A DNA stretch of 62,297 nt from assembly GCA_003554785.1 (NCBI GenBank), contig PWHG01000084.1, positions 1-62,297 on the forward strand, in the 5' to 3' direction. The DNA comes from Candidatus Falkowbacteria bacterium. Its GTDB lineage: Bacteria; Patescibacteriota; Patescibacteriia; Patescibacteriales; UBA12465. Within the stretch, counting starts at the first letter, position 1. Every line of letters begins with the position of its first letter. The position numbers and the translations under genes are program-made. Positions 1,091 through 59,050 of this stretch are shown one piece after another. The notes below the pieces were generated by a model. That model saw only the letters and a program-made list of their open reading frames with translations. It made no database searches and was not told the origin of the DNA.

Positions 1091-1123
1091 AGTTTTTCTC
1101 CTTGGAAATTATTATTCACCGGT

Positions 1124-3302: not shown

Positions 3303-3306
3303 ATGC

Positions 3307-4206: not shown

Positions 4207-4212
4207 GTCTGG

Positions 4213-8454: not shown

Positions 8455-8472
8455 TCCGGACACTCCTTTCTT

Positions 8473-9492: not shown

Positions 9493-10417
9493 AATGGCTC
9501 TCTCCTATCTTGAAGCCTTTCGCGATCAGGGCGATACAGACGAGCATGAAGATGACCGTACCGACATAGATCCAGGCCATGGCGCTGGAAAGACCCCAGT
9601 TCTGGCGGTTGAGCTCATCGGTGATGATGGTGCTCACCGGAGAGGTCAGGAAGGTATTGACAAGGGCGAAGACAGTGACGGTGATGATATGCGGCGTGAC
9701 ATTCGGCAAGGTGATGAGCCAGAACATCTCATAGGCGGTCGCGCCTTCGATTTTCGCGGCTTCATAGAGGTGGCGGGGAATCGATTGGATACTGGCCAAA
9801 AACAATAGAATCGGTACGCCGGCGAGGGCGAGGATCGCATAGATGCGGTCGATCAGACCGACGATGAAGGTGACCAGGAAAGCCGGGACATCGGCTTGCA
9901 AGAGATAGAACTCGAGATCGAAAATCTGGTCGATGCCCTGTTGGGCGAGAATCTCGTTCATGGCTTCGCCGCCGCCCATGGCGGTGGCGACCGCGGCCGA
10001 ATTCAGGATGACCGGGACGAAGAAAATCGCGCGGACGATGGCACGGCCTTTGAACTCCATGTTCAAAAGCACCGCGATGAACAGACTGAAGATCAGCAGG
10101 ACGGGGAGGTTGATGAGGACATCAGTGGTGGTCTCGATCAGTTCGATTCTGAAGCTCGAAGCCGAGGTGACATGGGTGTTCCAGGCGTAAAGATAGTTCC
10201 CGATGCCGCTGAATTCGGTGATGATCTCTCCGGCGCGCGGGGTGAGATCATAGAAACTGTAGCGCAGGGTGTTGACCATTGGAATCATGAACAGAAACAA
10301 AAATCCCGTGATCCAAGGTGCAAGAAAGATGAAGGCCCAGATCAGTTTCTGGGTGCTGTAGGAGAGTTCGAACTTCTTCTTGCGGGGGAAGTTTTTCCCG
10401 TTATTCTCATCAGGCAT
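9482..10417 (-). CDS. carbohydrate ABC transporter permease (MalF-type)
   Basis: 311 aa, EAA loop EAAKIEGATAYEMFWLITLPNVTP, GGGAGGGG RBS. Confidence 0.9.
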   Translation of the reverse strand: MPDENNGKNFPRKKKFELSYSTQKLIWAFIFLAPWITGFLFLFMIPMVNTLRYSFYDLTPRAGEIITEFSGIGNYLYAWNTHVTSASSFRIELIETTTDVLINLPVLLIFSLFIAVLLNMEFKGRAIVRAIFFVPVILNSAAVATAMGGGEAMNEILAQQGIDQIFDLEFYLLQADVPAFLVTFIVGLIDRIYAILALAGVPILLFLASIQSIPRHLYEAAKIEGATAYEMFWLITLPNVTPHIITVTVFALVNTFLTSPVSTIITDELNRQNWGLSSAMAWIYVGTVIFMLVCIALIAKGFKIGESHYEG

Positions 10418-10418
10418 C

Positions 10419-12986
10419 TCAGTTCCCCTCCCAGACGACGTAATCGAGGCCGGCGATGGTCACGCCATCATGCGTGGCCGCGGACAGGCTGTAGTTGATC
10501 ACGAGCGAGAGACCATGCGAGTAGGTGACCTTGTAGAGGTTGCGGCTGAGACGTTCGTGGTCCACAAGCCGGCCCTCGTGAAGGCTGAGGGCGTCAATCT
10601 CGCTCGTCTGTTCGGCGATGGTGTCAAGCCAGTTCTCGTATTGTGTCGACATATAGTGGTTGTAGTCGGTGTTGAGCAATTTGCGTGAGTCGTCATGGCT
10701 CAGAGTGTATTTCAGGTTCGAGCCGGTTTCTAAGTGTTTCAGGAACTGATAGCGAGCGCTTCGTTCGCTGGGGAGGTTGATGCTTTCGGCGGTATAGTCG
10801 ACGAGTCCGGAAAGCACGAGCTGCATGAGCGGAATCTCATAATCGACGATCGCATAGAGCGTGGTGACCGTGGGCAGATCGGTGATGGTGCCGGCATGAG
10901 GCAGGGCGAAACCGAGCGGACCCGAAAGCATCATGTTGAACTCGGAAGCCGAAAGCACGCTTTCTTGGAAACGAAGCGCGTCCTGTCTGTAGATCAGGTT
11001 ATTGCGGTCATAGTGTCCGGCGAGGCTTCCACCGAGATCAACGATCATGATGTTGTCATAATCGAAGTTGCCGCTGAAACGATCGAAAAGGGACGCGTAA
11101 AATGCGGGATTGATCACGAAGTCATCACCACGGTGGAAATAGGAAGTCTCCGAATAGGGCAGTCCCGTCGGGCGGTGATAGTTGAACACCATCGCGTGGT
11201 TACCGCGGATCCGGCTTGCGGTGTAACGGTTCTTATCGAATGGTTTGTTGTAGGATGAGGCCGACATGAAGTTGGTGCCCGCATAAAGTTCCATGCCGTT
11301 TTCACGCAGATAATCCTGGAAATCGTCGAAACCGGATTGTCCGCCCAGGACCCGTTCGATGGACACATTGGAAAGAAGCTGATTTTCAAGGCCGCCGTTG
11401 AGGGCGCCGGTGAAAACAACGTTGGCGTTGGTGACGCCGTTTTCCATCAGGGCATCCATGATGGTCTGGGCCTCTTTGAAGGTGGTCATGGTGTCAAGCG
11501 AATAGTAAGGGACGCCCAGAAAGAAATTGCGACGATCGTAAGCGCCGATGAACTCGACGGTGAGGACGGTCTCGCGGGTGTTGTCTTTCTCAGTCATGTT
11601 CCTTTCCTCGATCAGATGATCCCTGTAGGCGTTCGCGATACCGACATAGCTCGCATCATCGCCGGAAAGAAGCCGGTAATCGACGGTGAAGTCGGTGCGG
11701 ACGATGTCTCTGGTCCAAAGATCGACACCGTAGGTATTGAAGCCGCTGCCGATCACAACCCGCTCTCTTTCGCGAAGATGGAACGTCGTGTAGGCCTTGT
11801 TGAAGGAATCGGTACGGCCGGAGACTTCGGCGTTGATCGCCGCCATGGCGTCACCTTCTGTGATGATGGCCGCGTAGGCGGCGTCATCTTTCACCATGCC
11901 GTAAAGCGGAATATGAATCTTCTGGCGCTGTTCGGGCATCCTGTAGGGAAGGAGGCTCTGATCCAAGCCATAAAGTCGCTGGCGATAGGAATTCTGCAAA
12001 ACTTTACCGTTGTTGAATTCGATGACGGCACCGCTGCCGTCGGGGACAATGATTTTTCCTTCGGTGGCCTCACCGTCAATCTCGGAGACGGCGGTGCCGA
12101 AAAGGGGATAGAGGGTGATGCGCCCGAGGCGGATATCCTCGGTCTCGGTGAGCGATTCGTTGATCACGGAGGTCTTCACGCCTTTGTCGGTCAATAGAAC
12201 CTGAACCCCGATACGGAAGGAAAACTGTTCATACTGTTCGAAATAGCCGAAACTTTCGTTTTCACTGATCGCACGCTCACGCGTATAATCCATCTTTTCG
12301 TAGAAGACATCGAAAAGACGGGCGCGCACCAGTCTCGACATGTTTTCGTAGTTGACGATCTCGTAGGCATTCAGTTCCTCGTTGAAACCGGTGTAGGCGA
12401 TCTGTGAAAGCAGGCCGTAATCTTCCATCGCCTCGAAGGTCTCTTTCTCGATGTATTTTGGAAAATGCAGATAGTCGATTTCGAGGTCGACGATCTCATA
12501 GAGGACCTGGAAGCCGTTTTCGACGTATTTGATCTGGAAGGTCTTCTGCCCGGCCGGGGACAGGATGGTCTGTGGGTGGTGGATGGAACGGTTGTAGTTG
12601 TTGACGCTTGTCATCGAACCGGCCTGGTTGTAGTAGGAGATCTCGAGGGTGGATTTCTGACGGTCCAGAGCCGAGTTGGTGATGGGTTTGGTGATGTCGG
12701 TCTCCCACGGATCGGGAATGGACGGATTCGACTCCCAGACATGGCCGTTGCGTGTGTCGATCACCTTGAAATAGGAGGTGGTTTCGTCGAGATAGAGTTC
12801 GAAATGATCGTTGCTGACGACCAGTTTGTTCGTGTTGTTTAGTGTATCCGCATCGACGAAACCTTCGGTGGAGAACTCGATCAGTTCGGTGGCGGACACA
12901 CTGCTGGCACGCATGTTGAAAAGGGCGATGTAGAGAAAGCCGATCAACAGCAGACATGCGATGATGATGGTTTTTTTCAATGTCAT
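10419..12986 (-). CDS. 855-aa N-terminally anchored extracytoplasmic protein of unknown function (possibly DUF5696-like)
   Basis: ORF track. Single N-terminal TM segment (IIIACLLLIGFLYIALF) and an AGGAGG RBS. I recognise no catalytic motif; the DUF5696 suggestion is from memory only. Confidence 0.6.
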   Translation of the reverse strand: MTLKKTIIIACLLLIGFLYIALFNMRASSVSATELIEFSTEGFVDADTLNNTNKLVVSNDHFELYLDETTSYFKVIDTRNGHVWESNPSIPDPWETDITKPITNSALDRQKSTLEISYYNQAGSMTSVNNYNRSIHHPQTILSPAGQKTFQIKYVENGFQVLYEIVDLEIDYLHFPKYIEKETFEAMEDYGLLSQIAYTGFNEELNAYEIVNYENMSRLVRARLFDVFYEKMDYTRERAISENESFGYFEQYEQFSFRIGVQVLLTDKGVKTSVINESLTETEDIRLGRITLYPLFGTAVSEIDGEATEGKIIVPDGSGAVIEFNNGKVLQNSYRQRLYGLDQSLLPYRMPEQRQKIHIPLYGMVKDDAAYAAIITEGDAMAAINAEVSGRTDSFNKAYTTFHLRERERVVIGSGFNTYGVDLWTRDIVRTDFTVDYRLLSGDDASYVGIANAYRDHLIEERNMTEKDNTRETVLTVEFIGAYDRRNFFLGVPYYSLDTMTTFKEAQTIMDALMENGVTNANVVFTGALNGGLENQLLSNVSIERVLGGQSGFDDFQDYLRENGMELYAGTNFMSASSYNKPFDKNRYTASRIRGNHAMVFNYHRPTGLPYSETSYFHRGDDFVINPAFYASLFDRFSGNFDYDNIMIVDLGGSLAGHYDRNNLIYRQDALRFQESVLSASEFNMMLSGPLGFALPHAGTITDLPTVTTLYAIVDYEIPLMQLVLSGLVDYTAESINLPSERSARYQFLKHLETGSNLKYTLSHDDSRKLLNTDYNHYMSTQYENWLDTIAEQTSEIDALSLHEGRLVDHERLSRNLYKVTYSHGLSLVINYSLSAATHDGVTIAGLDYVVWEGN

Positions 12987-12997
12987 GTGTATCCTCC

Positions 12998-13639
12998 TTA
13001 GTACCTCAGGCTTAATTCCTGATAGATTGCGGAAACAAAAGCGATGAATTGTTGGATGAGATCGAAGAAAAGCAGGCCGAAGAACATCATGACGCTCATC
13101 GCCACGAACGTTGCGAGAAAGGCGATCAGGGTTTTACCGAGACCGTATTCATGGATGTTTAAAATACCCATGAACAGCATCCAGGCCGCTAGAAAATAGC
13201 TGATACCCATCGTCAGGTTGTAAAACCCCATCTCCTCAAGAGTCAGGAAATTGGAGACGAAAACGGCCGGATAGCCGATGATGATGATTGGAAAAAGCGC
13301 GTAGCCGGTGATCATCAGAATTTCTTTGAACGTGCCCTTGCCCTCCATGAGGGTGGTCACCGACCAGTTCCCGACCGCGAACAGCATAATCAGAAGGCCG
13401 GCGGAAAATATCTCTTGCAGACTGTTGAGCATCTGCGGATTGTTCGGGTTGATGGCGAAACTCTCATACTGAAACTGATAGATCCTGAAAAACATGAACA
13501 ATGCGATGAAGACGACGGCGACGGAAAGACGCCCCACGTTGTGGTGTTTGAACTCGTAAAAACCGTCGAAGGGACGCACCAGAAGATATTTCGGAAAGCT
13601 CAGGTAGTTCTGTTTGAAACGGATCAATCTAGTCTTCAT
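12998..13639 (-). CDS. Yip1-like polytopic membrane protein
   Basis: 213 aa, five hydrophobic helices after a roughly 35-aa cytoplasmic head. Overlaps the upstream gene by 11 nt. Confidence 0.65.
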   Translation of the reverse strand: MKTRLIRFKQNYLSFPKYLLVRPFDGFYEFKHHNVGRLSVAVVFIALFMFFRIYQFQYESFAINPNNPQMLNSLQEIFSAGLLIMLFAVGNWSVTTLMEGKGTFKEILMITGYALFPIIIIGYPAVFVSNFLTLEEMGFYNLTMGISYFLAAWMLFMGILNIHEYGLGKTLIAFLATFVAMSVMMFFGLLFFDLIQQFIAFVSAIYQELSLRY

Positions 13640-15101
13640 AGAGAATCGAGCCCCCCGACTTGTGGATTTTTCTCACCTTGAGTGCGATCAGGCCGACCGA
13701 AACAAAGACGAGCCCGCCCATGATGGCGCTGAAATTGGCCTTGATGTATTCGTTTCTATAGTTCTGATAGGCTTTCGAGTAATAGAAGGTGTCGTGGCCG
13801 AGGCGGAAATAGTCGACGGCCTTTTCATACTCGCCGGCGCGAAGATAATATTTCCCGATGCCGTTATAGGCGATTTCATAGTTGGTGTTGAGTCTGAGCA
13901 CTTCGCGCCAGATCTCAGCCGCCTTGTCAAAATCCCCTTCGTCTTCATACATCGTGGCGCGGTTGATCGCCACACCGATTTCGGTGAGCTGATAGACGAT
14001 GACGGTGCGGGTTCTTCTGTCGAGCACCAGCAGGTCGTCGCCGAGATAGTCGATGGCGACACCTTCTCTGAACTTGTCGCTTTGATCACCGGAATCACCG
14101 TTGATATAGAGGAGATTGCCGGATCTGTCATAGGTGAAGAGTCGGGAACGGCGCTGGTCCAAAACCGTGTAGATGCCGTTGTGGGTGTAGGCGATATCCA
14201 TCAGCAGGGAAGGGCCGGTGGTGACGTGGTTGTTCGTGCCTTCGATGAAATGGACATCACCCATCGGCGGATGGTAGCCGTTGCGTCTTAAAACATCGAC
14301 ACCCTTGGGGTTGATCAGCTGGATGGTGTTTTCCGCGCTGCCTTCGGAAGCGCGGCTGGTCGCATAGATGAAGCCGCGTTCGTTGATGGTGACATTGGTG
14401 TATTCCGTGGGAAGATAACGCTGCAGCTGCGCGAGCTGGGCATCGGTCATGAGGGAGCGTCTGAAGACCTCGAGCGGGTTGAGCTGGATGGGGTTGACAC
14501 CGGTGAAGCGGTTGAATGTTCCGTCGCTGTCGAGTTCGATGATGCCCTCATAGACATTGCGTGCGACGACATACATCCGTTCGGCCATGTCGACAGTCAG
14601 CTTGCGGGGTTCGAAGTTCATCTCTTCGAAAGTGAGGTCCTCGACATGGTCGAAAATGCCGATCACTTCGTAGTCATGGTTCAGCTTGATAATCCGGAAG
14701 TTGCCGGTATCGGCGATGTAGATGCCGCTGCGGTGCACATCGATTCCAAGGGGACTATCGAGGGTGATGGGACCATCGACAGGATTCCCTTCCTCATCAG
14801 TGGGTGGTGTTGTATCGGGATGGAGGGGAAAACTATCTTTCTGGTCGATCAGGGTGAAGGTCTTGTCGACGATGGTGAGCGTATCACGGCCCGAGTCGAC
14901 CATGTAGATGGTGTCTTGATAGACGGTGAGGTCTTCTGGCGAGACGAGCGGTACGCCGAGCGTGGTCGCGTTGAAATAGGCGGCGTAGGTCATGCCCGGA
15001 GAGGCATGGAGCACTTCGCCGTAATGTGAATAGTTGTACTGGGTGGCGCCCATCAGCAAAGGCAGCAGCAATCCCATACAGAGTACGTATAATTTTTTCA
15101 T
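13629..15101 (-). CDS. secreted NHL-repeat / TPR protein with a C-terminal membrane anchor
   Basis: Signal-like MKKLYVLCMGLLLPLLMGA (ATG 15101 preferred over 15110 on RBS spacing). NHL-like GIDVHRSGIYIADTGNFRIIKL. TPR-like GDFDKAAEIWREVLRLNTNYEIAYNGIGKYYLRAGEYEKAVDYF. C-terminal TM IMGGLVFVSVGLIAL. Confidence 0.7.
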   Translation of the reverse strand: MKKLYVLCMGLLLPLLMGATQYNYSHYGEVLHASPGMTYAAYFNATTLGVPLVSPEDLTVYQDTIYMVDSGRDTLTIVDKTFTLIDQKDSFPLHPDTTPPTDEEGNPVDGPITLDSPLGIDVHRSGIYIADTGNFRIIKLNHDYEVIGIFDHVEDLTFEEMNFEPRKLTVDMAERMYVVARNVYEGIIELDSDGTFNRFTGVNPIQLNPLEVFRRSLMTDAQLAQLQRYLPTEYTNVTINERGFIYATSRASEGSAENTIQLINPKGVDVLRRNGYHPPMGDVHFIEGTNNHVTTGPSLLMDIAYTHNGIYTVLDQRRSRLFTYDRSGNLLYINGDSGDQSDKFREGVAIDYLGDDLLVLDRRTRTVIVYQLTEIGVAINRATMYEDEGDFDKAAEIWREVLRLNTNYEIAYNGIGKYYLRAGEYEKAVDYFRLGHDTFYYSKAYQNYRNEYIKANFSAIMGGLVFVSVGLIALKVRKIHKSGGSILYED

Positions 15102-15113
15102 TCCATTCACCTC

Positions 15114-16001
15114 TTACTTCATGCCCGACGTACTGAACGTCTCGACGATGCGCGATTGTGAGAAAATGAAGAAGACAACCGGCACGATCATCATGATAAA
15201 GGATACCGCCGCGATGGTACCGGCACGTTCGATGGTGCCCTGGGCGATCTGTCTGAGCGAATAGGATAGGGGTTTGAGTTCCTCGCTGTAGATGAAGACA
15301 CCCCCGTCTTCGATCCAGAGCCTTTGGAACAAAAGGATGATCAATGTCAGCCAGGCCGGCTTGACAAGGGGCATCACAATCTGGAAGAAGATCCGGTATT
15401 CACTCGCGCCGTCGATCTTTGCTGATTCGATGAGATCGTCAGGCACCTGTTGCATGAATTGTTTCATGAGATAAAGTCCGAGGCTCGAGGCGAGCGCCGG
15501 GAAGATGATCGCGGCGTGGGAATCGACGAGCCCGATTCTGGAGATGATGATGTAGTTCGGCGTCGCGGTGACTTGCGGTGCGAACATCAGGGAATAGACC
15601 ACGAGGGTGAAAATCAGGGTCTTGCCCGGGAAATTGTATTTTGCGAGCGGGTAGGCGCACATCGAAGCGATGAGCACGTGTCCGGCCGTTCCCACGGCCG
15701 TGATGATGATGGTGTTGAAGAAATATCGGGAGAAAGGAATCCATGAGTTTCCGATCAGTTCGGAGAGATCCCTGAAGTTGTCGAATGTGATGTTGCGCGG
15801 GAACAGTCTCGGTGGAAAAAGGAAAAGCTCATCAAGCGGTTTGAAGGCGTTCGATACGGTCATGATCAGCGGATAGGCGCTGAAGGAACCGAAGAAAAGG
15901 AGCACGAGAAACAGACCCATGCTGCCCCAGAAAGAGCGGTTCAGCTTCTTTTTCTTCTTGATCTTGTAATGAAGACGGATTTTCTTGTAGAGTTTCATCA
16001 T
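15114..16001 (-). CDS. carbohydrate ABC transporter permease (LplC/YtcP-type)
   Basis: 295 aa, EAA loop ESAKIDGASEYRIFFQIVMPLVKPAW. Confidence 0.9.
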   Translation of the reverse strand: MMKLYKKIRLHYKIKKKKKLNRSFWGSMGLFLVLLFFGSFSAYPLIMTVSNAFKPLDELFLFPPRLFPRNITFDNFRDLSELIGNSWIPFSRYFFNTIIITAVGTAGHVLIASMCAYPLAKYNFPGKTLIFTLVVYSLMFAPQVTATPNYIIISRIGLVDSHAAIIFPALASSLGLYLMKQFMQQVPDDLIESAKIDGASEYRIFFQIVMPLVKPAWLTLIILLFQRLWIEDGGVFIYSEELKPLSYSLRQIAQGTIERAGTIAAVSFIMMIVPVVFFIFSQSRIVETFSTSGMK

Positions 16002-16002
16002 G

Positions 16003-16932
16003 TCAGCTTCCCACCTTTCTGAGCATTGAACGGACGACGAGGTTGGTCGTCATCATGATGAGGAAAAGGATGGTCGCGATCGCGGACGCGTAGCCGAGTT
16101 CGAAACGGAGCGTCCCGTAGTCGACGAGGTGGGTGACGATCGTATGACCGGCGTATTGCACCGAGGGGAACCCGAGCAGGTGCATCGAGACCTCGGCGAT
16201 GGCGAGACTGGTGGTGATCTGCATGACGGCACCGAAAAGAAGCTGCGGTTTCATCGAAGGCAGAGTGATGAACCAAAGTTCCTGCCAGCGGTTGCGGATA
16301 CCGTCGATGGCGCCGGCCTCATAAAGCGTCTTGTCGACACCCTGAAGTCCCGCGATGAATGCGAGGAAACTGACCCCGAGACTGAGCCACAGCTGGACAA
16401 GTATCAGCACCGGAAGCATGTAGGTGGGGTTTCTGAGCCAGATGATGGGGTTGTCGATGAGACCGAGCCGCATGAGATAGGAATTCGCGAACCCGTGCAT
16501 GTCGCCCGAGAAAATCAGAAGCCAGATCAAAAAGGCGTTTCCGGAGATCGATGGCGCATAGAAGATCAAGGTCATCAGCGCCCGCAGTTTCGGTCCGAGC
16601 TCGTTGATGAGCCAGGCGAAGACAAACGCGAGCATATAGCTGACGGGGCCGGTGACCACGGCGAGGATCAGCGTATTCTTGAGCGAGATGATGAAGATTT
16701 CGTCTTCAAGAAAAAGGGTACGGTAGTTGTCAAGACCGATGAAGTGCGGTCTTTCAAGCAGGTTGAAGTAGGTGAAGCTGATGCCTAAGGACATGAAGAC
16801 CGGGACGATGGTGAACGTCATGAACAGAAGGACGAACGGTGACATGAGGATATAGTTGTGTTTGTTTTTCTTCAAGTTTTTCTTGAAACGTTCTTTTCTT
16901 GTGAGTGCGTAGGTATCCGATTTGATCGCCAC
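16003..16932 (-). CDS. carbohydrate ABC transporter permease (LplB-type)
   Basis: 309 aa, basic N-terminal tail, EAA loop EAGAIDGIRNRWQELWFITLPSMKP. Confidence 0.9.
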   Translation of the reverse strand: MAIKSDTYALTRKERFKKNLKKNKHNYILMSPFVLLFMTFTIVPVFMSLGISFTYFNLLERPHFIGLDNYRTLFLEDEIFIISLKNTLILAVVTGPVSYMLAFVFAWLINELGPKLRALMTLIFYAPSISGNAFLIWLLIFSGDMHGFANSYLMRLGLIDNPIIWLRNPTYMLPVLILVQLWLSLGVSFLAFIAGLQGVDKTLYEAGAIDGIRNRWQELWFITLPSMKPQLLFGAVMQITTSLAIAEVSMHLLGFPSVQYAGHTIVTHLVDYGTLRFELGYASAIATILFLIMMTTNLVVRSMLRKVGS

Positions 16933-16943
16933 AATTTATCCTC

Positions 16944-19865
16944 CTATTCCAATCCGAATTCCCGGCGTTTCTTCGCCAGTTCTTCGTTGATGACCTGCAC
17001 GAAATCGTAGATGGTCTCCCGGGGATTCGTACTGTCTTCGAGCACCATTCTCAAGGCATTGTCGAGATGGCGGCCGGTCATGTAGCCTCCCGGTACTTCG
17101 GGGATGCCTCTGACCTGGTTCCATTGTTCTTCGAGTTTCATGTATTCGGCGACGGTCCAGGGCAGCTGCTGCATGGCCTCGACGTTCGCGGTCGGATAAC
17201 GGGCGGCGGCACCGAGGATGCCTTCCATCTCGCGTCCGAAACGGACCTGTGTTTCCGTGCTGGTCCACCATTTCAGATATTCCCAGGCCGCATCCTTGTT
17301 CTCGGCGTTCTCGAGAATCATCGCGGAGGTTCCTGTCGAGACGGTGTCACGGCGGATGACTTGGTTGCCGTTCTCGTCGGTCGAGAGGGTTCCCGGAATC
17401 GGCATGAAGTCCCAGCGGCCGCGGATTTCCGGAGCGAAGACGCTCAGGACGTTGTACATGTTGTAATAATCGATGCCGATCGGCATCTGTCCGCTTCTGA
17501 AACGGTTGACGAAGTTCGCTTCCACCGGGAAGCTGTAATCGGTATAAAACTGCGTCCATGTCTCGAATATCTGTGGGGCGACGCCTTCGTTGAAGCCGCT
17601 TTCGCGGTTGTTGTCGATGTAGAACTCACCGTCATTCTGATAGAACATGGAGGAATAGACGGGGTTCGGCGGGAGGCTGATCACCTGTCCTTGCTGCTGG
17701 ATGGGAATCGGCAGGAAGAACTCCAGGTTGTGTTTCTGAAGATCCGGAATCATCGTGATCATGTCGTCCCAAGTCTCAGGCGGGGTCATGCCGAGTTCCT
17801 CGAAGATATCCTTACGGTAGAACATCATCAGGAAAATCTGTTGTTCGGGCAGGGCGTAATAACCGTCTTCATGGTTGAAGGGGACGATGGCGCTTTCCTT
17901 GAAACGGCTGCTGACGATCTCTTCGAAATCGTCGAACTGGCTCAAATCGTAGACGGCGTTACGCATCGCGTAGTTCACGGGGATGTCGTTTTGCACCATC
18001 ATGGCGACTTCCGGTCCCTCGCCCGCGAGTGTGGCCGGCAACAGGACCGGTCCGCTGACGAGTTTCAAATCGATGTGGATGCCGGTCTCGGGCGTGAAGG
18101 TCTCGTCGATCAGTTTCCTGAGCACGTTGGCCTGGTCGCGGCCGATACTCAGCCAGACTTCGATGGAGACATCCTCGTCGGTGGGTTCGGTCGTCCGGCC
18201 GATGGTGTCGTAGTCGGTGGTATAGGTGGCGATGAAGGAACGGACCGCGAACAGGGTGCGGGCAAAGAAGTTGTCACGGTTGCGCGGCAAATCGCTTTCG
18301 GGGTTGTGGAAAGCGAAATAGTCGATTTCGAGCGGTTGTTGGCTCAAAAGGATGATCAGCGTTCCGAGTGAAGCGATATTCTGGTTGTAGACATTGAGGT
18401 TGCGGTGGATTTCACGGGGGGAGCGGGTGAAATCACGGAGCTGGATCAAGATGGTGTCGAGGATACCGGTCTTCTCACTCTTCGTCCCGGATATCTCGAT
18501 GATCTGGTCACGGATTTCCTGGAGGATTTCGCGTTCGGTCTGAAGGCGGGCGACCAAGTCGGTCACACGGTCTTCAAGCTGATAGTCCCGGAACGGATCG
18601 GGCTCGGGGCCCGTGTAGATCAGAATTTCACGGTAAAGGGCGTTCAGACGGTCGATGGAGGCCTGGAGTTCAGCGATCAGGGCACCGTAGGAACCGAGGG
18701 AGACTTCCATGGAAAGCTCATAGGTTCGTCCCGCCTCGAAATAGAACAAGAAAGCCTCATCCTGGGTGCCGAGCGTCTGGATACGCCAATCCGGCGAATG
18801 CGGGAACTGATAGTCCTTGAGTTCCTCGAAAGGAATCTCCCCGTCGATATAGATGTTTCTACTGACGTTCATGCCGGTGGCGAGCTTCTGCTTGACGCGC
18901 ATGCTGATGGCATAAAGACCACTCTCTTCGACTTCGAAGTCCCAGGCGATGCGGTCGTTGGCGATCCGCCAGTTGTTGCCGCCGATGGTGTTGAGCAGGT
19001 CCTTTGTGGGACTGCTCGGTGTGGTGGCGGAGCTCGTACTGTCGACGAGCGGATAGAGGGTGGGGCTTGTCGTATAGGCGGCGATCTGTGCTTGTCTGAG
19101 CATCAGTTCGCTACCGGTTTCACTGTAGCCGTTAGCCATATAGGTCGCATGGACATCTTCGTAGGATGGAAGGTCGCTTACCGAAAGAATCTCGATACTG
19201 TCGATGACGACCGGTTCGCGGGTCGCTTCGAGGGTGATGGTGTTTTCACCTTTTTCCAAGTAGAACTGATAGGGCTCGTTCACATAACCGATCGAATCGC
19301 GGAAAAACCCTTGTGTCCAAAAGGGTGTTTCGATCTGGGAAGGTCTGATGTCGTTGCCGTGAATGTCTTGCACCACATCGTTCGCGTTGCCCCAGATTCT
19401 CTGGAAAGTCAGATTGCGAGCGCCGTCGAAGGGGACTTCGCCGTTGATATGGAGGATACGCTCGATCATGGAGCTTTTCCCTTCGATCGGGAAGTAGTTG
19501 AGCCGCATGTTGTAAAAGCCGGCTTCATCGACATCGAAAGTCCAGGTCACACTGCCGGTCTCATCGGTAAAAAGGACATCGTCGAGGCCTTCGAAGGTTC
19601 CAAGGACTTCGGCGGTGTCCGACGCTTCAGTGTAGTCGTGACCCGGAATGACAATCCGTGCGTCTTGCGGAAAGTGCGCAGTATTTTTAGTCAAATAATC
19701 ATAATAATCGGTGGACGCTGCAAAATCCAGATCCGCGTGTCTGGTGACATTGTATTTGTCCCTGTTGTAGTAAAGCGGACCGCGGTTGTCCTCGATGATT
19801 CCGTTGATGGCGAGCGCGATGAGCACCACAAGCGCAAGCGACGCCGTTATTATAAGTTTTTTCAC
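16944..19865 (-). CDS. giant membrane-anchored ABC substrate-binding protein with two N-terminal CBM-like repeats
   Basis: The ORF track starts at 19874 (GTG inside the RBS). I prefer the GTG at 19865 (MKKLIITASL...) 8 nt after GGAG. Has an N-terminal TM segment. Two roughly 50-aa repeats sit 200 aa apart (VTWTFDVDEAGFYNMRLNYF...INGEVPF and IAWDFEVEESGLYAISMRVK...IDGEIPF). The C-terminal roughly 420 aa look like a type-1/8 sugar SBP. Confidence 0.8.
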   Translation of the reverse strand: MKKLIITASLALVVLIALAINGIIEDNRGPLYYNRDKYNVTRHADLDFAASTDYYDYLTKNTAHFPQDARIVIPGHDYTEASDTAEVLGTFEGLDDVLFTDETGSVTWTFDVDEAGFYNMRLNYFPIEGKSSMIERILHINGEVPFDGARNLTFQRIWGNANDVVQDIHGNDIRPSQIETPFWTQGFFRDSIGYVNEPYQFYLEKGENTITLEATREPVVIDSIEILSVSDLPSYEDVHATYMANGYSETGSELMLRQAQIAAYTTSPTLYPLVDSTSSATTPSSPTKDLLNTIGGNNWRIANDRIAWDFEVEESGLYAISMRVKQKLATGMNVSRNIYIDGEIPFEELKDYQFPHSPDWRIQTLGTQDEAFLFYFEAGRTYELSMEVSLGSYGALIAELQASIDRLNALYREILIYTGPEPDPFRDYQLEDRVTDLVARLQTEREILQEIRDQIIEISGTKSEKTGILDTILIQLRDFTRSPREIHRNLNVYNQNIASLGTLIILLSQQPLEIDYFAFHNPESDLPRNRDNFFARTLFAVRSFIATYTTDYDTIGRTTEPTDEDVSIEVWLSIGRDQANVLRKLIDETFTPETGIHIDLKLVSGPVLLPATLAGEGPEVAMMVQNDIPVNYAMRNAVYDLSQFDDFEEIVSSRFKESAIVPFNHEDGYYALPEQQIFLMMFYRKDIFEELGMTPPETWDDMITMIPDLQKHNLEFFLPIPIQQQGQVISLPPNPVYSSMFYQNDGEFYIDNNRESGFNEGVAPQIFETWTQFYTDYSFPVEANFVNRFRSGQMPIGIDYYNMYNVLSVFAPEIRGRWDFMPIPGTLSTDENGNQVIRRDTVSTGTSAMILENAENKDAAWEYLKWWTSTETQVRFGREMEGILGAAARYPTANVEAMQQLPWTVAEYMKLEEQWNQVRGIPEVPGGYMTGRHLDNALRMVLEDSTNPRETIYDFVQVINEELAKKRREFGLE

Positions 19866-19896
19866 TAAAAACACTCCTCATTGTCCTTTTGTGATA

Positions 19897-19929
19897 TACA
19901 ATCCCCCTTTTATGCAAAGGGGGATTGTA
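19897..19929 (-). promoter_or_regulatory. intercistronic 14-bp stem-loop between the two SBP genes (no T-tract)
   Basis: TACAATCCCCCTTT (19897..19910) / AAAGGGGGATTGTA (19916..19929), 5-nt loop. Not followed by a U-run on either strand. Confidence 0.5.
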
Positions 19930-19940
19930 CATAAAATGTG

Positions 19941-21563
19941 TTAGTCTTTGAAATATTCTTCCACGGCTGCGTCGTAGATCGGTTTGATCTGGTCGACGGT
20001 CGTACGGGCGGTGCCTTCGCGGATGGCTTCGTTGATGTTGGCGCGCCAGCCGTTTTCGCCGTATGGGCTGATGCCCACGGCGTTGATGAGTTCGAGGTAG
20101 ATTTTGTTGTAGACATCGATGTAGGCCTCGACATACAGTTCATCATCGAAACGAGTGAGCAGGGTCATCTCGAACTCGTTGCGCATTTCTTCTTCTGTTT
20201 TCCAAAGCTGCAGTTCGTTCCACACCTGGAAGACGAGTTCTTCACGTTCGGGGGTCATGCCGCTTGCGATATGGTAAAGGGCGACACCGGAGACGGGAGA
20301 GACGTATTCGCCTTCATAGTCGTCGGCGGCGGGATAGGGGACGAACCCGATCTCAAAGGCGATATTGCCCCAGCGGTTGTCCGCATTGATGAACCAGAAG
20401 TTTCCTGGGTGCATGGCGACTTTGCCCGCCATCCAGTCCGGGCTGCCCGCATCATAGGCGGGATTTTCTTCGAAGAGTCCCTGGGTGTAGAGATTGTTGA
20501 GGAAGGTGTAGGTCTCAAGGGCGGGGTTCTGATGGAACGCCACACGGCCGGCCTGGGCGTTGATGAGGCTTCCGCCGTTCAGAGGAATCATGTTCTCGGC
20601 GTAGAAGGCGAGCACACCGCCGAGTGCGAACATGTCATCGCCCTGGGTGGAAAGGGCGGTCTGAGTGTCAGAGGCCCATTGTTCGAAACGGCTCCAGTTC
20701 CATTCGCCGTCCAAGTAGAGCTCTGTCGGGTTGGCGACACCGAGGCTTCTGACCAGATCGGCGTTATAGTAAAGGCCGTTCGAGATGGTCAGGTTGCCCG
20801 GGTTGAACCCATAGACCTTGCCACCGAAAGAACCGATGGTATGAAAGTCGGCGTGGATGTTTTCGCCGTGAGTGAAAAGATACTGGTCGATCGGTGCGAT
20901 CGCATCGCCGTTGGCGAGTTGCTGGATCCAGTCGCTGGTGGACCAGTAGATATCCGCGAGGGGGTCTCCTGAAACGGAAGCCTGGATGATCGCGGTGACA
21001 CGGCTCGGTCCCCATGCCGCGCTTGCGGGATAGTTCACATAACGCACTTCGACATTGAGGCGTTGTTCAACTTCACGTTGACGTTCTTGACGTTGGATCT
21101 GTTCGGTGCCGCTGAAATTCTCATGGAACGGGTCGACCTCATGGGGCGCGCCATGCATGATGCGGATGACTTCCGGGGCAATATCCACGCAGTCTCCGTT
21201 TTTCAGCTCCTGATTCGGTGCACAACCGTCTTCCGTCAGGACAATGACCGTACGGGTCCTTGTGACCGCTTCGTTGTTGCTGCCGGTCACGGTGTAGGTC
21301 AGGGTGTAGGTTCCGGGTGTGTCGGTATCGACGGTACCGCTCACATTGACGCGGTCGGTGATGTCACCGTCTTCGCTATCGATGGCTTCGACAGCGGCCA
21401 TCGGGTCATAGTCTTCGCCGATGCCGATCTGCAATTCTGTCAGACCGGAGAAAGTGACGGTGCCGTTGTCACCGTTTTCCTCGTTCGGTTCTTCGCCGTT
21501 GCCGCACGCGGTGAGTGTGACGACGGTTAGTGCGAGTAGGAAAAAGCTCAATATTTTTTTCAT
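19941..21563 (-). CDS. ABC substrate-binding lipoprotein with an N-terminal Ig-like (DUF5011-type) domain
   Basis: I prefer the ATG at 21563 (MKKILSFFLLALTVVTLTAC, lipobox LTAC). The Ig-like segment reads EDGDITDRVNVSGTVDTDTPGTYTLTYTV. The remainder is SBP-like. Confidence 0.85.
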   Translation of the reverse strand: MKKILSFFLLALTVVTLTACGNGEEPNEENGDNGTVTFSGLTELQIGIGEDYDPMAAVEAIDSEDGDITDRVNVSGTVDTDTPGTYTLTYTVTGSNNEAVTRTRTVIVLTEDGCAPNQELKNGDCVDIAPEVIRIMHGAPHEVDPFHENFSGTEQIQRQERQREVEQRLNVEVRYVNYPASAAWGPSRVTAIIQASVSGDPLADIYWSTSDWIQQLANGDAIAPIDQYLFTHGENIHADFHTIGSFGGKVYGFNPGNLTISNGLYYNADLVRSLGVANPTELYLDGEWNWSRFEQWASDTQTALSTQGDDMFALGGVLAFYAENMIPLNGGSLINAQAGRVAFHQNPALETYTFLNNLYTQGLFEENPAYDAGSPDWMAGKVAMHPGNFWFINADNRWGNIAFEIGFVPYPAADDYEGEYVSPVSGVALYHIASGMTPEREELVFQVWNELQLWKTEEEMRNEFEMTLLTRFDDELYVEAYIDVYNKIYLELINAVGISPYGENGWRANINEAIREGTARTTVDQIKPIYDAAVEEYFKD

Positions 21564-21708
21564 ATTCATACCCTCTCTTTTTTCTATAAAAGCGATTTCA
21601 TTTGCTATTATACTACCTTTGTCCATAAGAAAATACCCTTGAAGCGTTATTTTCAGTTTTGTTTATTTTTTTTCAGTGCCGTCGGATTTTCGGCCTTAAA
21701 TGGCATAA

Positions 21709-33662: not shown

Positions 33663-33677
33663 GATCGCATGCACTCC

Positions 33678-40795: not shown

Positions 40796-40803
40796 ATTAT
40801 CAC

Positions 40804-41595: not shown

Positions 41596-41707
41596 CATTT
41601 CACCTCGTACAATAGAGATAATTTGCCATTCTAAAGATACCATAGTTTATGCGCCATAAAAAGGTTTTCATGGGCTTTTTCAGGAATGGGAAATTCCATT
41701 CAATAAA

Positions 41708-59049: not shown

Positions 59050-59050
59050 T

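What the first reader, a model, noticed from the sequence alone, without database searches (positions are those of the whole stretch)
10419..19865. Uncharacterised six-gene extracytoplasmic module nested inside a MurNAc/GlcNAc catabolic operon
Seen in the sequence:
- Six co-directional genes are tightly coupled, with gaps of 1-12 nt or overlaps.
- The 976-aa SBP has an N-terminal TM helix, two CBM-like repeats exactly 200 aa apart (nt 19401..19553 and 18801..18953), and then a sugar-SBP domain.
- Two LplB/LplC-type permeases follow.
- Next is a secreted NHL plus TPR protein with a C-terminal anchor.
- Then a five-helix Yip1-like membrane protein.
- Last is an 855-aa N-terminally anchored protein in which I recognise no catalytic motif.

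Recollection: I believe a giant SBP, Yip1 and a DUF5696-type protein recur next to LplABC-like transporters in Firmicutes genomes. This is from memory and unverified. I know of no biochemical function for the three non-transporter proteins.

Inference: here the module is embedded between genes of clear peptidoglycan-sugar function. It may therefore be a membrane-tethered machine that captures or processes polymeric glycan before ABC import. This is my best candidate for an undescribed system in the window.
Basis: partly seen in the sequence, partly recalled or inferred. Interest (0 to 1): 0.8.

Follow-up and report, generated by a model that had tools for sequence, protein, structure and literature searches.

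The report
Conserved nine-gene glycan capture and import cassette
The six genes are real, but they are the centre of a nine-gene membrane cassette found in many Firmicutes, wall-less Mollicutes and some spirochaetes: two sugar ABC importers, a giant binding protein carrying carbohydrate-binding modules, a glycosidase-like protein of unknown activity and a propeller/Yip1 membrane scaffold; here it sits in a locus for eating other bacteria's cell walls, and I found no paper describing it.

Summary
All six genes and their stated features are present at the stated coordinates.

- **Extent.** In 80 related loci the 855-aa DUF5696 gene is followed by a second permease pair in 75 of 75 cases. It is preceded by Yip1, NHL/TPR, two permeases and the ~970-aa binding protein (SBP) in 60-64 of 65. 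A second, small SBP lies at one end. The conserved unit is therefore nine genes, window 8473-21626.
- **DUF5696.** It folds confidently (pLDDT 93.7) into a GH129/GH101-like three-domain glycosidase architecture. The position mapped approximately to the GH129 nucleophile is not conserved, while another set of polar residues is invariant.
- **Giant SBP.** Its two repeats are CBM6/CBM35-like beta-sandwiches.
- **NHL/TPR and Yip1.** They are fused into one protein in 17 loci.
- **Neighbours elsewhere.** These are GH26, GH30, GH53, GH38 and GH2 enzymes with LacI or AraC regulators, so the cassette is not tied to one glycan. Here it serves peptidoglycan-glycan import in a probable Acholeplasmatales bacterium.
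- **Variable and constant parts.** The small SBP changes most with glycan type (71% versus 31% identity). The giant SBP's C-terminal domain and its two permeases stay highly conserved, which I cannot explain.

Full-text searches of the paper library found nothing on this cassette. Verdict: real, widespread, uncharacterised; a new variant of ABC-based glycan utilisation loci.

The parts
19941..21626 (-). Small SBP: lipoprotein (lipobox LTAC after an internal Met) with an Ig-like domain and SBP_bac_1. It is the variable, specificity-determining SBP of the cassette.
   Evidence: Pfam. Homologs lie directly upstream of the giant SBP or directly downstream of the second permease pair in most loci. 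Identity between GH26-linked and GH30-linked cassettes falls to 31%, against 71% within a type.
16944..19874 (-). Giant membrane-tethered SBP (976 aa; the likely true start is the GTG at 19865, giving 973 aa).
   Evidence: An N-terminal TM segment is present in 60 of 63 orthologs.
19182..19658 (-). Giant SBP, beta-sandwich 1 (aa 73-231), CBM6/CBM35-like.
   Evidence: AF2 model with pLDDT about 80-90 in this part. Foldseek matches to CBM6/CBM35 with TM-score 0.6-0.76 normalised to the target. Internal repeat E=3e-7. Pfam CBM_35 is recorded in some orthologs.
18699..19103 (-). Giant SBP, beta-sandwich 2 (aa 258-392), CBM6/CBM35-like.
   Evidence: Weak Golvesin_C hit.
18342..18689 (-). Giant SBP, bundle of three long helices (aa 396-511) between the CBM-like modules and the SBP domain.
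   Evidence: DSSP of the AF2 model. Function unknown.
16947..18179 (-). Giant SBP, C-terminal class-1 sugar SBP domain (aa ~566-976). Unusually conserved: median 49% identity to non-Acholeplasmatales orthologs.
   Evidence: Pfam. PDB sugar SBPs at E~1e-6. Conservation. This part of the AF2 model has low confidence.
16003..16932 (-). Permease T of transporter 1 (MalF/UgpA-like), with the EAA-type motif EAGAIDG.
   Evidence: NCBIfam. Sequence. Median 60% identity across phyla.
15114..16001 (-). Permease U of transporter 1 (MalG/UgpE-like), with an EAA motif.
   Evidence: Median 57% identity across phyla.
13629..15110 (-). Secreted six-bladed NHL beta-propeller (aa ~60-375), TPR (aa ~380-455) and C-terminal TM anchor (aa 461-479).
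   Evidence: Ortholog profile against PDB NHL domains, E=5e-42. C-terminal TM in 47 of 48 orthologs. Fused to Yip1 in 17 loci.
12998..13639 (-). Yip1-domain membrane protein with about 5 TM segments. Its start overlaps the NHL/TPR stop by 11 nt.
   Evidence: Pfam. Hydropathy. Overlap. Present in 61 of 65 loci.
10419..12986 (-). DUF5696 protein: N-terminal TM anchor (aa 7-25), beta-sandwich domain with a helical insert (aa ~54-441), (beta/alpha)8 barrel (aa ~475-800) and C-terminal beta-sandwich (aa 807-853). The fold is GH129/GH101-like.
   Evidence: Pfam. AF2 pLDDT 93.7 and pTM 0.91. Foldseek to GH129, E=1.7e-29. Family profile against GH129 sequences, E=5.4e-11. Residue conservation.
9482..10417 (-). 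Permease 2a of transporter 2, with EAA motif EAAKIEG. It starts 1 nt after the DUF5696 stop.
   Evidence: Present after DUF5696 in 75 of 75 loci.
8473..9492 (-). Permease 2b of transporter 2, with an EAA motif.
   Evidence: Present in 75 of 75 loci.
7813..8463 (-). DUF624 / MusI-family membrane protein, a lineage-variable accessory of CUT1 importers.
   Evidence: Pfam. NCBIfam MusI_fam, E=1.4e-14 but below the curated cutoff. It follows the cassette in the Acholeplasmatales loci and a few others.
2580..7829 (-). Local cargo-specific catabolic genes: NamZ, GH3 NagZ, BadF-type sugar kinase, MurQ-like SIS etherase and NagB. NamZ and NagZ have no signal peptide.
   Evidence: Pfam. N-termini read. 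Same order in Mariniplasma anaerobium.

Best explanation
The finding is the core of a conserved nine-gene, membrane-anchored cassette for capturing and importing glycans. The gene order is small SBP, giant CBM-bearing SBP, permease pair 1, NHL/TPR anchor, Yip1, DUF5696, permease pair 2. It is used as a portable module in glycan-utilisation loci of monoderm and wall-less bacteria.

**Proposed working (inferred unless stated)**
- The giant SBP is tethered by an N-terminal helix. Its two CBM6/35-like modules hold glycan chains or large fragments at the membrane surface.
- DUF5696 is tethered in the same way. It offers a GH129/GH101-like cleft that trims the captured glycan or passes it on.
- The NHL propeller, TPR, TM helix and Yip1 act as a membrane scaffold holding the parts together.
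- Oligosaccharides enter through two type-I (CUT1) ABC translocons. Both are powered by an MsmX-type ATPase encoded elsewhere.
- The fast-evolving small SBP with permease pair 2 sets substrate specificity. The giant SBP's C-domain with permease pair 1 is a constant core.

**In this window** the cargo is peptidoglycan glycan.
- Surface enzymes would strip peptides from foreign murein and cut the glycan: an Amidase_2 lipoprotein, anchored GHL10 proteins and a beta-lactamase-fold protein.
- The cassette imports GlcNAc-MurNAc oligomers.
- Cytoplasmic NamZ and NagZ cleave them, kinases phosphorylate the sugars, and MurQ and NagB feed them into glycolysis.
- An adjacent FAD-oxidase/EtfAB system probably oxidises the D-lactate released by MurQ.

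**Shown:** gene content, folds, synteny, fusions, membrane anchors and conservation patterns. **Inferred:** physical complex formation, the role of each part, and the transported species.
For: **Synteny**
Eighty loci were fetched.
- A permease pair follows DUF5696 in 75 of 75 loci. Upstream: NHL 64 of 65, Yip1 61 of 65, permease pair 1 in 62 of 65, giant SBP C-domain 62 of 65 and N-domain 60 of 65.
- A homolog of the small SBP lies upstream of the giant SBP or just after permease pair 2 in most loci.
- Genes are separated by gaps of -11 to 11 nt.

**Physical linkage**
- NHL/TPR and Yip1 are one polypeptide in 17 loci, with 5-7 predicted TM segments after residue 400.
- Membrane anchors are conserved: DUF5696 72 of 73, giant SBP 60 of 63, NHL C-terminal TM 47 of 48.

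**Import direction**
- Two SBP_bac_1 proteins and four BPD_transp_1-type permeases, all with EAA motifs.
- No ATPase motif anywhere in the window, and in only 2 of 81 loci within 10 kb.

**Folds**
- DUF5696: pLDDT 93.7; best Foldseek matches are GH129 (E=1.7e-29), then GH101, GH36, GH31 and GH13. The family profile finds GH129 sequences at E=5.4e-11.
- Giant SBP N-terminal part: CBM6/35-like.
- NHL propeller: E=5e-42.

**Link to glycan use**
- Downstream neighbours among 89 ORFs: GH26 in 10, GH30 in 7, GH2 in 3-4, GH53 in 3, GH38 in 3, GHL10 in 3.
- LacI or AraC regulators lie upstream.

**Specificity pattern** (GH26-linked versus GH30-linked cassettes)
- Small SBP 71% within a type, 31% between types.
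- DUF5696 56% and 38%.
- Permease pair 2: 74% and about 52%.
- Permease pair 1: about 80% and about 70%.

**Local pathway**
-.
- The same locus is present in Mariniplasma anaerobium.
- NamZ and NagZ here lack signal peptides. In B. subtilis they are secreted and monosaccharides enter by PTS (PMC8054146).
Against: - No experiment bears on any component. Complex formation rests only on synteny, translational coupling and one fusion.
- The position I map to the GH129 nucleophile (650) is Asp in the window protein, but Met, Leu, Tyr, Asn, Phe or Gly in nearly all of its 120 closest orthologs. It is Thr, Ser or Gly in several Clostridia.
- The position mapped to the acid/base is Asn in the family and Leu here. 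DUF5696 may therefore not be a hydrolase of the known type.
- That mapping rests on secondary structure and a weak HMM alignment, not on a structural superposition.
- The strong conservation of the giant SBP's C-domain and permease pair 1 across cassettes linked to different glycans is unexpected for a substrate-specific importer. The model does not explain it.
- The SBP domain of the giant protein was modelled poorly (pLDDT 25-50).
- The wall-less nature of the host is inferred only from the taxonomic labels of its closest homologs.
Confidence: 0.55

Rival explanations
1. DUF5696 is a true extracellular glycoside hydrolase, founding a new GH family distantly related to GH129/GH101. It makes the final surface cut that produces the oligosaccharide taken up by the permease pair encoded directly after it. 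Its catalytic centre uses the invariant acidic residues (D/E242, D316, D342, D715) rather than the classical beta-4 Asp.
For: - GH129/GH101-like fold and remote sequence homology.
- The pattern of invariant polar residues plus variable cleft residues is what an enzyme family with changing specificity shows.
- The GH129-like enzyme DagB also needs an Asp from its N-terminal domain, Asp202 (PMC5698469).
- DUF5696 diverges with the linked GH type (56% versus 38%).
- It always precedes a permease pair.
Against: - The nucleophile position is not conserved, and the acid/base position is Asn or Leu.
- All close structural relatives act on alpha-linkages, whereas the linked glycans are mostly beta-1,4.
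- No informative domain fusions were found.
- The spatial clustering of the invariant residues could not be checked because no coordinates were available.
Confidence: 0.4
2. DUF5696 is a non-catalytic pseudo-glycosidase. It acts as a surface glycan-binding protein or docking platform, comparable to SusE/F-type surface glycan-binding proteins. Its invariant residues form a metal site or a protein-protein interface.
For: - In the window's own clade the classical pocket residues are lost: position 650 is Met/Leu/Tyr/Asn, 691 is Leu, 528 is a small hydrophobic residue, and 658 is His/Ser/Asn.
- The protein nevertheless stays under constraint at 49-63% identity.
- The nucleophile position also varies in the GH53-linked Lachnospiraceae copies.
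Against: - About ten polar residues are invariant across more than 270 sequences at around 25% identity. That is unusual for a pure binding protein whose ligand changes.
- In most Paenibacillus copies the cleft keeps several Asp residues and aromatics.
Confidence: 0.35
3. The genes are two unrelated ABC importers and some surface proteins that merely lie next to each other in this operon, which is the reader's 'nested module' picture.
For: - Two complete SBP-plus-permease sets can in principle work independently.
- There is a 66-nt gap with a hairpin after the small SBP gene.
Against: - The same order of nine genes recurs across Acholeplasmatales, Paenibacillus, Clostridia and Treponema.
- The second permease pair is present in 75 of 75 loci.
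Confidence: 0.03
4. The cassette is a sensing or regulatory device, or an export/assembly machine for a surface glycan, rather than a nutrient importer. The highly conserved transporter 1 would act as a transceptor or mechanotransducer.
For: - The giant SBP's C-domain and permease pair 1 are unexpectedly conserved regardless of the linked glycan.
- TPR and propeller proteins occur in polysaccharide secretion systems (general knowledge).
- ABC systems that signal rather than transport exist, for example FtsEX.
Against: - SBP-dependent type-I permeases with EAA loops are importers.
- No signalling domain is present in any component.
- Neighbours are catabolic GHs with LacI or AraC regulators.
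- No glycosyltransferases are present.
Confidence: 0.07

Closest known systems
Gram-positive polysaccharide utilisation loci built on CUT1 ABC importers (e.g. the beta-mannan loci of Roseburia and Faecalibacterium, PMC8262883)
   Same: - A lipoprotein or tethered SBP plus two BPD_transp_1 permeases.
- The ATPase is supplied in trans.
- LacI/AraC regulation, with glycoside hydrolases in the same locus.
   Different: - Two SBPs and two permease pairs in a fixed order.
- One SBP of about 970 aa carries two CBM6/35-like modules and a helical bundle.
- Three extra conserved membrane-anchored proteins: NHL/TPR, Yip1 and DUF5696.
- I know of no described locus that contains these.
Bacteroidota Sus-like systems / utilisomes (SusC/D with surface glycan-binding proteins and a surface GH)
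   Same: Same functional logic: surface capture, limited surface processing, import of oligosaccharides, and breakdown inside the cell. The core is portable and recombines with different GHs.
   Different: - No TonB-dependent transporter and no SusD.
- Transport is across a single membrane by ABC systems.
- None of the components is homologous.
- Complex formation is not shown here.
CAZy GH129 (NagBb alpha-N-acetylgalactosaminidase, 5wzn) and the GH129-like DagB/ZgGH129 (5opq, 8rzk); more distantly GH101
   Same: - Same three-domain architecture: N-terminal beta-sandwich, (beta/alpha)8 barrel, C-terminal beta-sandwich.
- Foldseek E=1e-22 to 1.7e-29.
- Family profile E=2e-6 to 5e-11.
   Different: - About 12% sequence identity.
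- About 110 extra residues in the N-terminal domain.
- An N-terminal membrane anchor.
- The nucleophile Asp is not conserved and there is no acidic residue at the mapped acid/base position.
- A different set of residues is invariant.
- It is always encoded inside an ABC transporter cassette.
Bacillus YknWXYZ, in which the Yip1-family protein YknW accompanies an ABC transporter (PMC4887032)
   Same: A bacterial Yip1-domain membrane protein encoded with, and thought to work with, an ABC transporter.
   Different: - YknXYZ is an exporter of a different ABC class.
- It has no NHL/TPR partner and no link to glycans.
- Homology beyond the shared Pfam domain was not tested.
B. subtilis murQ-murR-murP-amiE-nagZ-namZ peptidoglycan recycling operon (PMC8054146)
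   Same: The downstream enzymes are the same kinds: NamZ, NagZ, MurQ, an amidase and an RpiR-type regulator.
   Different: - In B. subtilis NamZ, NagZ and AmiE are secreted, and monosaccharides enter through PTS transporters.
- Here NamZ and NagZ lack signal peptides, no PTS is present, and kinases plus ABC importers replace it.
- The probable host makes no wall of its own, so this is foraging rather than recycling.

Membership tests
Pfam DUF5696 (PF18952) | Match to the family HMM above the gathering score | tested here: met
   528.7 bits against a cutoff of 25.6, covering profile positions 6-612 of 612.
CAZy GH129 | Three-domain fold: beta-sandwich, (beta/alpha)8 barrel, beta-sandwich | tested here: met
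   AF2 model with pLDDT 93.7. Foldseek to 5opq, 8rzk and 5wzn at E=1e-22 to 1.7e-29, with TM-score 0.64-0.70 normalised to the target.
CAZy GH129 | Family-level sequence similarity | tested here: not met
   Only DUF5696 is reported by Pfam at E<=0.01. The single sequence against PDB gives E=0.38. Only a family profile reaches GH129 chains, at E=5.4e-11 and 2e-6, in short segments. Identity is about 12%.
CAZy GH129 | Conserved catalytic nucleophile Asp at the end of barrel strand 4 (NagBb Asp435 = DagB Asp486) | tested here: not met
   The mapped position is 650. It is Asp in the window protein but is not among the six commonest residues (Met, Leu, Tyr, Asn, Phe, Gly) in its 120 closest orthologs. 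It is Asp in 72% of an 83-sequence family alignment. It is Leu, Asn, Phe and Leu in four Acholeplasmatales loci with the same operon layout. The mapping is approximate.
CAZy GH129 | Acid/base Glu after barrel strand 5 (NagBb Glu478) | tested here: inconclusive
   The mapped region 689-691 has Asn in most family members and Leu here. The alignment in this region is weak, and no structural superposition was possible.
CAZy GH129 | alpha-GalNAc-ase or alpha-3,6-anhydrogalactosidase activity | not testable with these tools
   Needs an enzyme assay.
CUT1-type (type I) ABC sugar importer | Class-1 extracellular SBP | tested here: met
   SBP_bac_1 and SBP_bac_8 in both SBPs. Solved sugar SBPs match at E~1e-6.
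CUT1-type (type I) ABC sugar importer | Two MalF/MalG-type permeases with an EAA coupling motif | tested here: met
   BPD_transp_1 or NCBIfam UgpA/UgpE-type hits for all four permeases. EAA motifs seen in the sequences.
CUT1-type (type I) ABC sugar importer | Cognate ABC ATPase | tested here: not met
   No Walker A plus LSGGQ ORF in the 62-kb window, nor inside any cassette. An ATPase supplied in trans, like MsmX, is assumed from what is known of Firmicutes CUT1 systems.
CBM6 / CBM35 carbohydrate-binding modules | Beta-sandwich fold of the family | tested here: met
   Foldseek to 2w1w, 2vzr, 2w46 and 2cdp with TM-score 0.6-0.76 normalised to the target, on the well-modelled part of the SBP.
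CBM6 / CBM35 carbohydrate-binding modules | Family HMM match and ligand-binding residues | tested here: inconclusive
   The window protein has only a sub-threshold Golvesin_C hit. Some orthologs carry a recorded CBM_35 (PF16990) hit. Binding-site residues were not examined.
NHL-repeat beta-propeller | Repeated NHL blades forming a six-bladed propeller | tested here: met
   The single-sequence Pfam NHL hit is below cutoff. The ortholog profile matches PknD, TRIM71 and Pizza NHL domains at E=5e-42 to 1e-28, with 4-6 matched stretches.
Yip1 domain (PF04893) | HMM match above the gathering score and about five TM helices | tested here: met
   37.5 bits against 28.6, covering profile positions 2-170 of 173. 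Hydropathy.
Sus-like PUL | SusC TonB-dependent transporter with SusD | tested here: not met
   No such domains in any of the roughly 40 proteins of the window that were scanned. The resemblance is one of functional logic only.
MurNAc/GlcNAc catabolic pathway (local context) | NamZ, NagZ, sugar kinase, MurQ-type SIS etherase, NagB, AnmK and an RpiR regulator | tested here: met
   Pfam hits well above cutoffs.

The most novel reading that the evidence does not exclude
The nine proteins assemble into one membrane supercomplex, a 'utilisome' of single-membrane bacteria.
- A tethered SBP carrying CBMs and a glycosidase-fold protein with a non-classical active site thread linear glycan chains into two coupled ABC translocons.
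- The NHL-TPR-Yip1 unit is the organising scaffold.
- The near-invariant transporter 1 does a job that does not depend on the substrate, for example handling any beta-1,4-linked backbone. The small SBP with transporter 2 confers specificity.

If true, this would give DUF5696 and bacterial Yip1 proteins their first function, and would define a new GH-like family.
Probability: 0.3. Interest if true: 0.8.

Novelty: new variant of a known kind. Interest (0 to 1): 0.62.

Why it matters
- ABC-based glycan utilisation in Firmicutes is much less understood than the Sus paradigm of Bacteroidota.
- This cassette is widespread. DUF5696 has 4128 clusters at 50% identity. Some Paenibacillus genomes carry more than one copy, next to different GH families.
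- It contains two families with no assigned function (DUF5696 and bacterial Yip1) and an unusual giant SBP.
- Working out how it operates would explain how many soil, gut and rumen Firmicutes, and wall-less Mollicutes, take up large glycans.
- It may reveal a new glycosidase mechanism or a new kind of accessory for ABC importers.
- Locally, it points to probably wall-less Acholeplasmatales feeding on other bacteria's peptidoglycan through oligosaccharide import.

Tried and rejected
**Searches that failed or found nothing**
- The genome scan with the single DUF5696 protein found nothing. The 83-sequence alignment was too diverse to give a search pattern. A 20-sequence alignment worked.
- Literature searches on DUF5696, 'YIP1 family protein', Yip1+NHL+ABC, SBP+CBM35 and Acholeplasma+MurQ found nothing on this cassette.
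- Rfam found nothing in the window.

**Structure prediction limits**
- The permitted alignment (60-70% identical) gave a good N-terminal half but a poor SBP domain. No statement is made about its ligand site.
- I could not obtain model coordinates. The mapping of GH129 catalytic residues onto DUF5696 therefore rests on secondary-structure order and partial HMM alignments.

**Leads that gave nothing**
- Longer DUF5696 variants (1000-1270 aa) were scanned for informative fused domains. None was found beyond an atrophied Ig domain.

**Ideas considered and rejected**
- Position 650 as an essential nucleophile: rejected because orthologs lack it.
- The cassette as specific to amino sugars: rejected because of the GH26, GH30, GH53 and GH38 neighbours.
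- The promoter and terminator scan gave counts close to those of shuffled sequence, so it is not used as evidence.

Full report
**1. What is there**

The gaps between them are 11, 1, 3, -11 and 11 nt. Pfam and NCBIfam confirm each assignment:
- a 976-aa protein whose last ~400 residues are a class-1 sugar SBP;
- two MalF/MalG-type permeases;
- a 493-aa protein with TPR and a weak NHL signal;
- a Yip1-domain protein;
- an 855-aa DUF5696 protein (E=2.7e-158).

Hydropathy gives one N-terminal TM helix in the SBP and in DUF5696. It gives a C-terminal TM helix in the NHL/TPR protein and about five TM helices in Yip1. The two SBP repeats lie 200 residues apart and align at BLASTP E=3e-7. The public gene call for the SBP starts three codons later, at 19865, giving 973 aa.

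**2. Host and local context**

The nearest homologs of DUF5696 and of the giant SBP come from Acholeplasmataceae, Izemoplasmatales and 'Tenericutes' MAGs, and from Mariniplasma anaerobium. The host is therefore probably a wall-less member of the Acholeplasmatales. This is an inference from taxonomic labels only.

The long minus-strand array from 41.6 kb down to 2.6 kb encodes the following:
- EtfAB and an FAD-linked oxidase;
- an RpiR regulator;
- AnmK and two BadF-type kinases;
- GH4;
- three GHL10 domains, two of them in a 1271-aa doubly anchored protein;
- a beta-lactamase-fold protein;
- a lipoprotein with Big_2 repeats, a beta-helix and Amidase_2;
- an anchored 804-aa Ig-like protein;
- then the cassette, followed by DUF624, NamZ, GH3 NagZ, a kinase, a MurQ-like etherase and NagB.

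Mariniplasma has the same order. From my own knowledge, GHL10 is the family of E. coli DigH. DigH cleaves peptide-free ('denuded') glycan strands (PMC12288456). The family assignment of DigH was not tested here.

NamZ and NagZ lack signal peptides here and no PTS is present. In B. subtilis both enzymes are secreted and the monosaccharides enter by PTS (PMC8054146). This argues that oligosaccharides are imported here and cleaved inside the cell.

**3. The real unit is nine genes**

Eighty loci were kept. They come from Acholeplasma, Izemoplasmatales, Paenibacillus, Cohnella, Clostridia, Lachnospiraceae, Oscillospiraceae and Treponema/Spirochaetaceae.

I searched these loci with the window proteins by phmmer on ORFs and by tblastn on DNA:
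- a permease pair directly after DUF5696: 75 of 75 loci;
- NHL upstream: 64 of 65;
- Yip1: 61 of 65;
- permeases T and U: 62 of 65;
- giant SBP C-domain 62 of 65 and N-domain 60 of 65.

A homolog of the 561-aa small SBP lies either just upstream of the giant SBP or just downstream of the second permease pair.

NHL/TPR and Yip1 are a single polypeptide in 17 loci, with 5-7 TM segments after the propeller. This is Rosetta-stone evidence that they work together.

Membrane anchors are conserved: DUF5696 in 72 of 73, giant SBP in 60 of 63, and the NHL C-terminal TM in 47 of 48. No ABC ATPase is encoded in the window, and only 2 of 81 loci have one within 10 kb. All four permeases carry EAA motifs.

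**4. DUF5696**

With an 83-sequence alignment drawn from 4128 family clusters, AlphaFold2 gave pLDDT 93.7 and pTM 0.91. The model has four parts:
- a TM helix;
- a large beta-sandwich with a helical insert;
- a (beta/alpha)8 barrel;
- a C-terminal beta-sandwich.

The best Foldseek matches are GH129 enzymes. DagB/ZgGH129 scores E=1.7e-29 and NagBb about 1e-22. GH101, GH36, GH31 and GH13 follow. The family profile also detects GH129 sequences, at E=5.4e-11 and 2e-6. The relationship is therefore homology, not only shape.

*Catalytic residues.* I mapped them using three things: the strand order in the model, the partial HMM alignments, and the published residues. The published residues are NagBb Asp435 = DagB Asp486, together with DagB Asp202, Glu517 and Glu531 (PMC5698469).
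- The nucleophile falls at or near Asp650, at the end of strand 4.
- The acid/base falls near 689-691.
- Position 650 is Asp in only 72% of the family alignment.
- It is Leu, Asn, Phe and Leu in four Acholeplasmatales loci with the same layout.
- In the 120 closest orthologs it is mostly Met, Leu, Tyr, Asn, Phe or Gly.
- It is Thr, Ser or Gly in several Clostridia, including the GH53-linked copies.
- Position 691 is Asn in the family and Leu here.

*Other cleft positions.* The window's clade has also replaced Trp528, Asp570, Asp658 and Tyr693.

*Invariant residues.* D316 and S318 (in the GYxVPDGSG motif), N325, D342, N396, D715, N737, E753, H810 and N831 are essentially invariant. This holds across all alignments, more than 270 sequences down to about 25% identity. 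Position 242, in an N-domain helix, is always acidic.

DUF5696 therefore fails membership of GH129. It remains either a hydrolase with a different catalytic centre or a conserved non-catalytic platform. I could not decide between these without model coordinates.

**5. Giant SBP and NHL/TPR**

Only close homologs could be used for the SBP model, and overall pLDDT is 61. Residues 60-560 are modelled at about 80-90. They show two beta-sandwiches (73-231 and 258-392) followed by three long helices (396-511). Foldseek matches the sandwiches to CBM6 and CBM35 modules with TM-score 0.6-0.76 normalised to the target. Some orthologs carry a recorded Pfam CBM_35 hit.

The NHL/TPR ortholog profile matches solved six-bladed NHL propellers at E=5e-42, and also TPR proteins. 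No enzyme family appears.

**6. What the cassette travels with, and which parts change**

Downstream neighbours among 89 ORFs from 60 loci:

| Family | ORFs |
|---|---|
| GH26 | 10 |
| further SBPs | 10 |
| GH30 | 7 |
| DUF624 | 5 |
| GH2 | 3-4 |
| GH53 | 3 |
| GH38 | 3 |
| GHL10 | 3 |
| GH106 | 2 |
| NAGPA | 2 |

Upstream regulators are LacI (18 loci) or AraC. Single genomes carry more than one cassette: Paenibacillus alkaliterrae has L009 (GH30-linked) and L028 (GH38-linked), and Pristimantibacillus has L019 and L059.

Median identity of the window proteins to orthologs outside the Acholeplasmatales:

| Component | Median identity (%) |
|---|---|
| Permease T | 60 |
| Permease U | 57 |
| Giant SBP C-domain | 49 |
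| Permease 2b | 40 |
| Yip1 | 38 |
| Giant SBP N-domain | 36 |
| Permease 2a | 36 |
| NHL/TPR | 35 |
| DUF5696 | 28 |
| Small SBP | 26 |

Identity between GH26-linked and GH30-linked cassettes:

| Component | Within a type (%) | Between types (%) |
|---|---|---|
| Small SBP | 71 | 31 |
| DUF5696 | 56 | 38 |
| Permease 2a / 2b | 74 / 74 | 52 / 51 |
| NHL/TPR | 67 | 47 |
| Yip1 | 73 | 55 |
| Giant SBP N-domain | 61 | 46 |
| Giant SBP C-domain | 76 | 59 |
| Permease T | 79 | 70 |
| Permease U | 83 | 72 |

The small SBP is thus the main determinant of specificity. DUF5696 and transporter 2 follow the substrate to a lesser degree. The giant SBP's C-domain with transporter 1 forms a near-constant core. 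I cannot explain why one importer should be indifferent to the substrate. One speculation is that most of the linked glycans (mannan, galactan, xylan, peptidoglycan) share beta-1,4 backbones.

**7. Mechanism I commit to**

*Confidence 0.55 for the overall picture; less for the individual roles.*

The cassette is a portable surface apparatus for glycan capture and import.
- The CBM modules on the tethered giant SBP hold glycan at the membrane.
- The DUF5696 cleft trims it or passes it on.
- NHL-TPR-Yip1 scaffolds the assembly.
- Two CUT1 translocons, driven by an ATPase encoded elsewhere, import the oligosaccharides.

Here the cargo is peptidoglycan glycan. It would be released by the surface amidase and the GHL10 enzymes, then broken down in the cytoplasm by NamZ, NagZ, the kinases, MurQ and NagB. 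The D-lactate from MurQ would be oxidised by the adjacent FAD-oxidase/EtfAB genes.

Rivals: two independent transporters lying together by chance (contradicted by synteny), a sensor or export machine (weak), and, for DUF5696 alone, active enzyme versus pseudo-enzyme (open).

**8. Novelty**

No paper in the searchable library mentions DUF5696 or this gene combination. The closest known things are:
- ABC-based Gram-positive PULs (same transport principle, none of the accessory proteins);
- Sus-type utilisomes (same logic, no homology);
- GH129/DagB (same fold, different catalytic residues);
- YknW, a Yip1-family protein that accompanies an ABC exporter.

I rate it a new variant of a known kind. 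It is widespread, and three of its components are functionally unassigned.

Noticed in passing
window 38205-41643 (-): An FAD-linked oxidase (FAD_binding_4 and FAD-oxidase_C) with EtfA and EtfB lies at the head of the array. This looks like an electron-transfer-flavoprotein-linked D-lactate dehydrogenase, which fits oxidation of the D-lactate released by the MurQ etherase downstream.
   Followed up: partly
window 28630-32445 and 32442-33674 (-): Three GHL10 domains. Two are in a 1271-aa protein with both an N-terminal and a C-terminal hydrophobic anchor; one is in a 410-aa protein without a signal peptide. From memory, GHL10 is the family of E. coli DigH, a hydrolase specific for denuded glycan. 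GHL10 genes also follow DUF5696 cassettes in three other loci.
   Followed up: partly
window 24336-27584 (-): A 1082-aa lipoprotein with four Big_2 repeats, a right-handed beta-helix and an Amidase_2 domain. It is a candidate surface enzyme for stripping stem peptides from foreign peptidoglycan.
   Followed up: no
window 21755-24169 (-): An 804-aa protein with a signal peptide and a C-terminal anchor, and only weak Ig/HYR-like hits. An ~820-aa protein with no Pfam hit sits at the same position upstream of the small SBP in Mariniplasma (L001).
   Followed up: no
window 5117-7829 (-): NamZ and GH3 NagZ have no signal peptide, unlike their secreted B. subtilis counterparts. No PTS gene is present, which implies cytoplasmic cleavage of imported GlcNAc-MurNAc oligomers.
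   Followed up: partly
window 42779-44329 (+); L008, L014, L041: A NAGPA-domain (phosphodiester glycosidase) protein lies just beyond the array on the other strand. NAGPA proteins also lie directly downstream of DUF5696 cassettes in three Bacilli MAG loci.
   Followed up: no
window 19903-19922 (-): A G+C-rich hairpin (CCCCTTTGCATAAAAGGGGG) lies in the 66-nt gap between the small SBP gene and the giant SBP gene. It could be an mRNA-stabilising or attenuating element of the kind often found after SBP genes.
   Followed up: no
window 54000-62297: G+C content falls from about 0.54 to about 0.39. The region encodes a 1048-aa protein with a GLUG motif and may be a foreign or differently evolving segment.
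   Followed up: no
window 770-1498 (-): Two adjacent small paralogous proteins (106 and 124 aa). Each has an N-terminal CxxC...CxxC zinc-ribbon and two C-terminal hydrophobic segments.
   Followed up: no
L009/L028 and L019/L059: Single genomes (Paenibacillus alkaliterrae, Candidatus Pristimantibacillus) carry two paralogous nine-gene cassettes. In P. alkaliterrae one copy sits next to GH30 and the other next to GH38, which shows duplication and re-targeting of the whole unit.
   Followed up: partly
L003 (Halieaceae MAG, 2.3-kb contig); P0103 (labelled Bacteroidetes MAG): Close Acholeplasmatales-type DUF5696 genes appear in bins labelled as Gram-negative taxa, on very short contigs. This is probably mis-binning rather than true distribution.
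   Followed up: no
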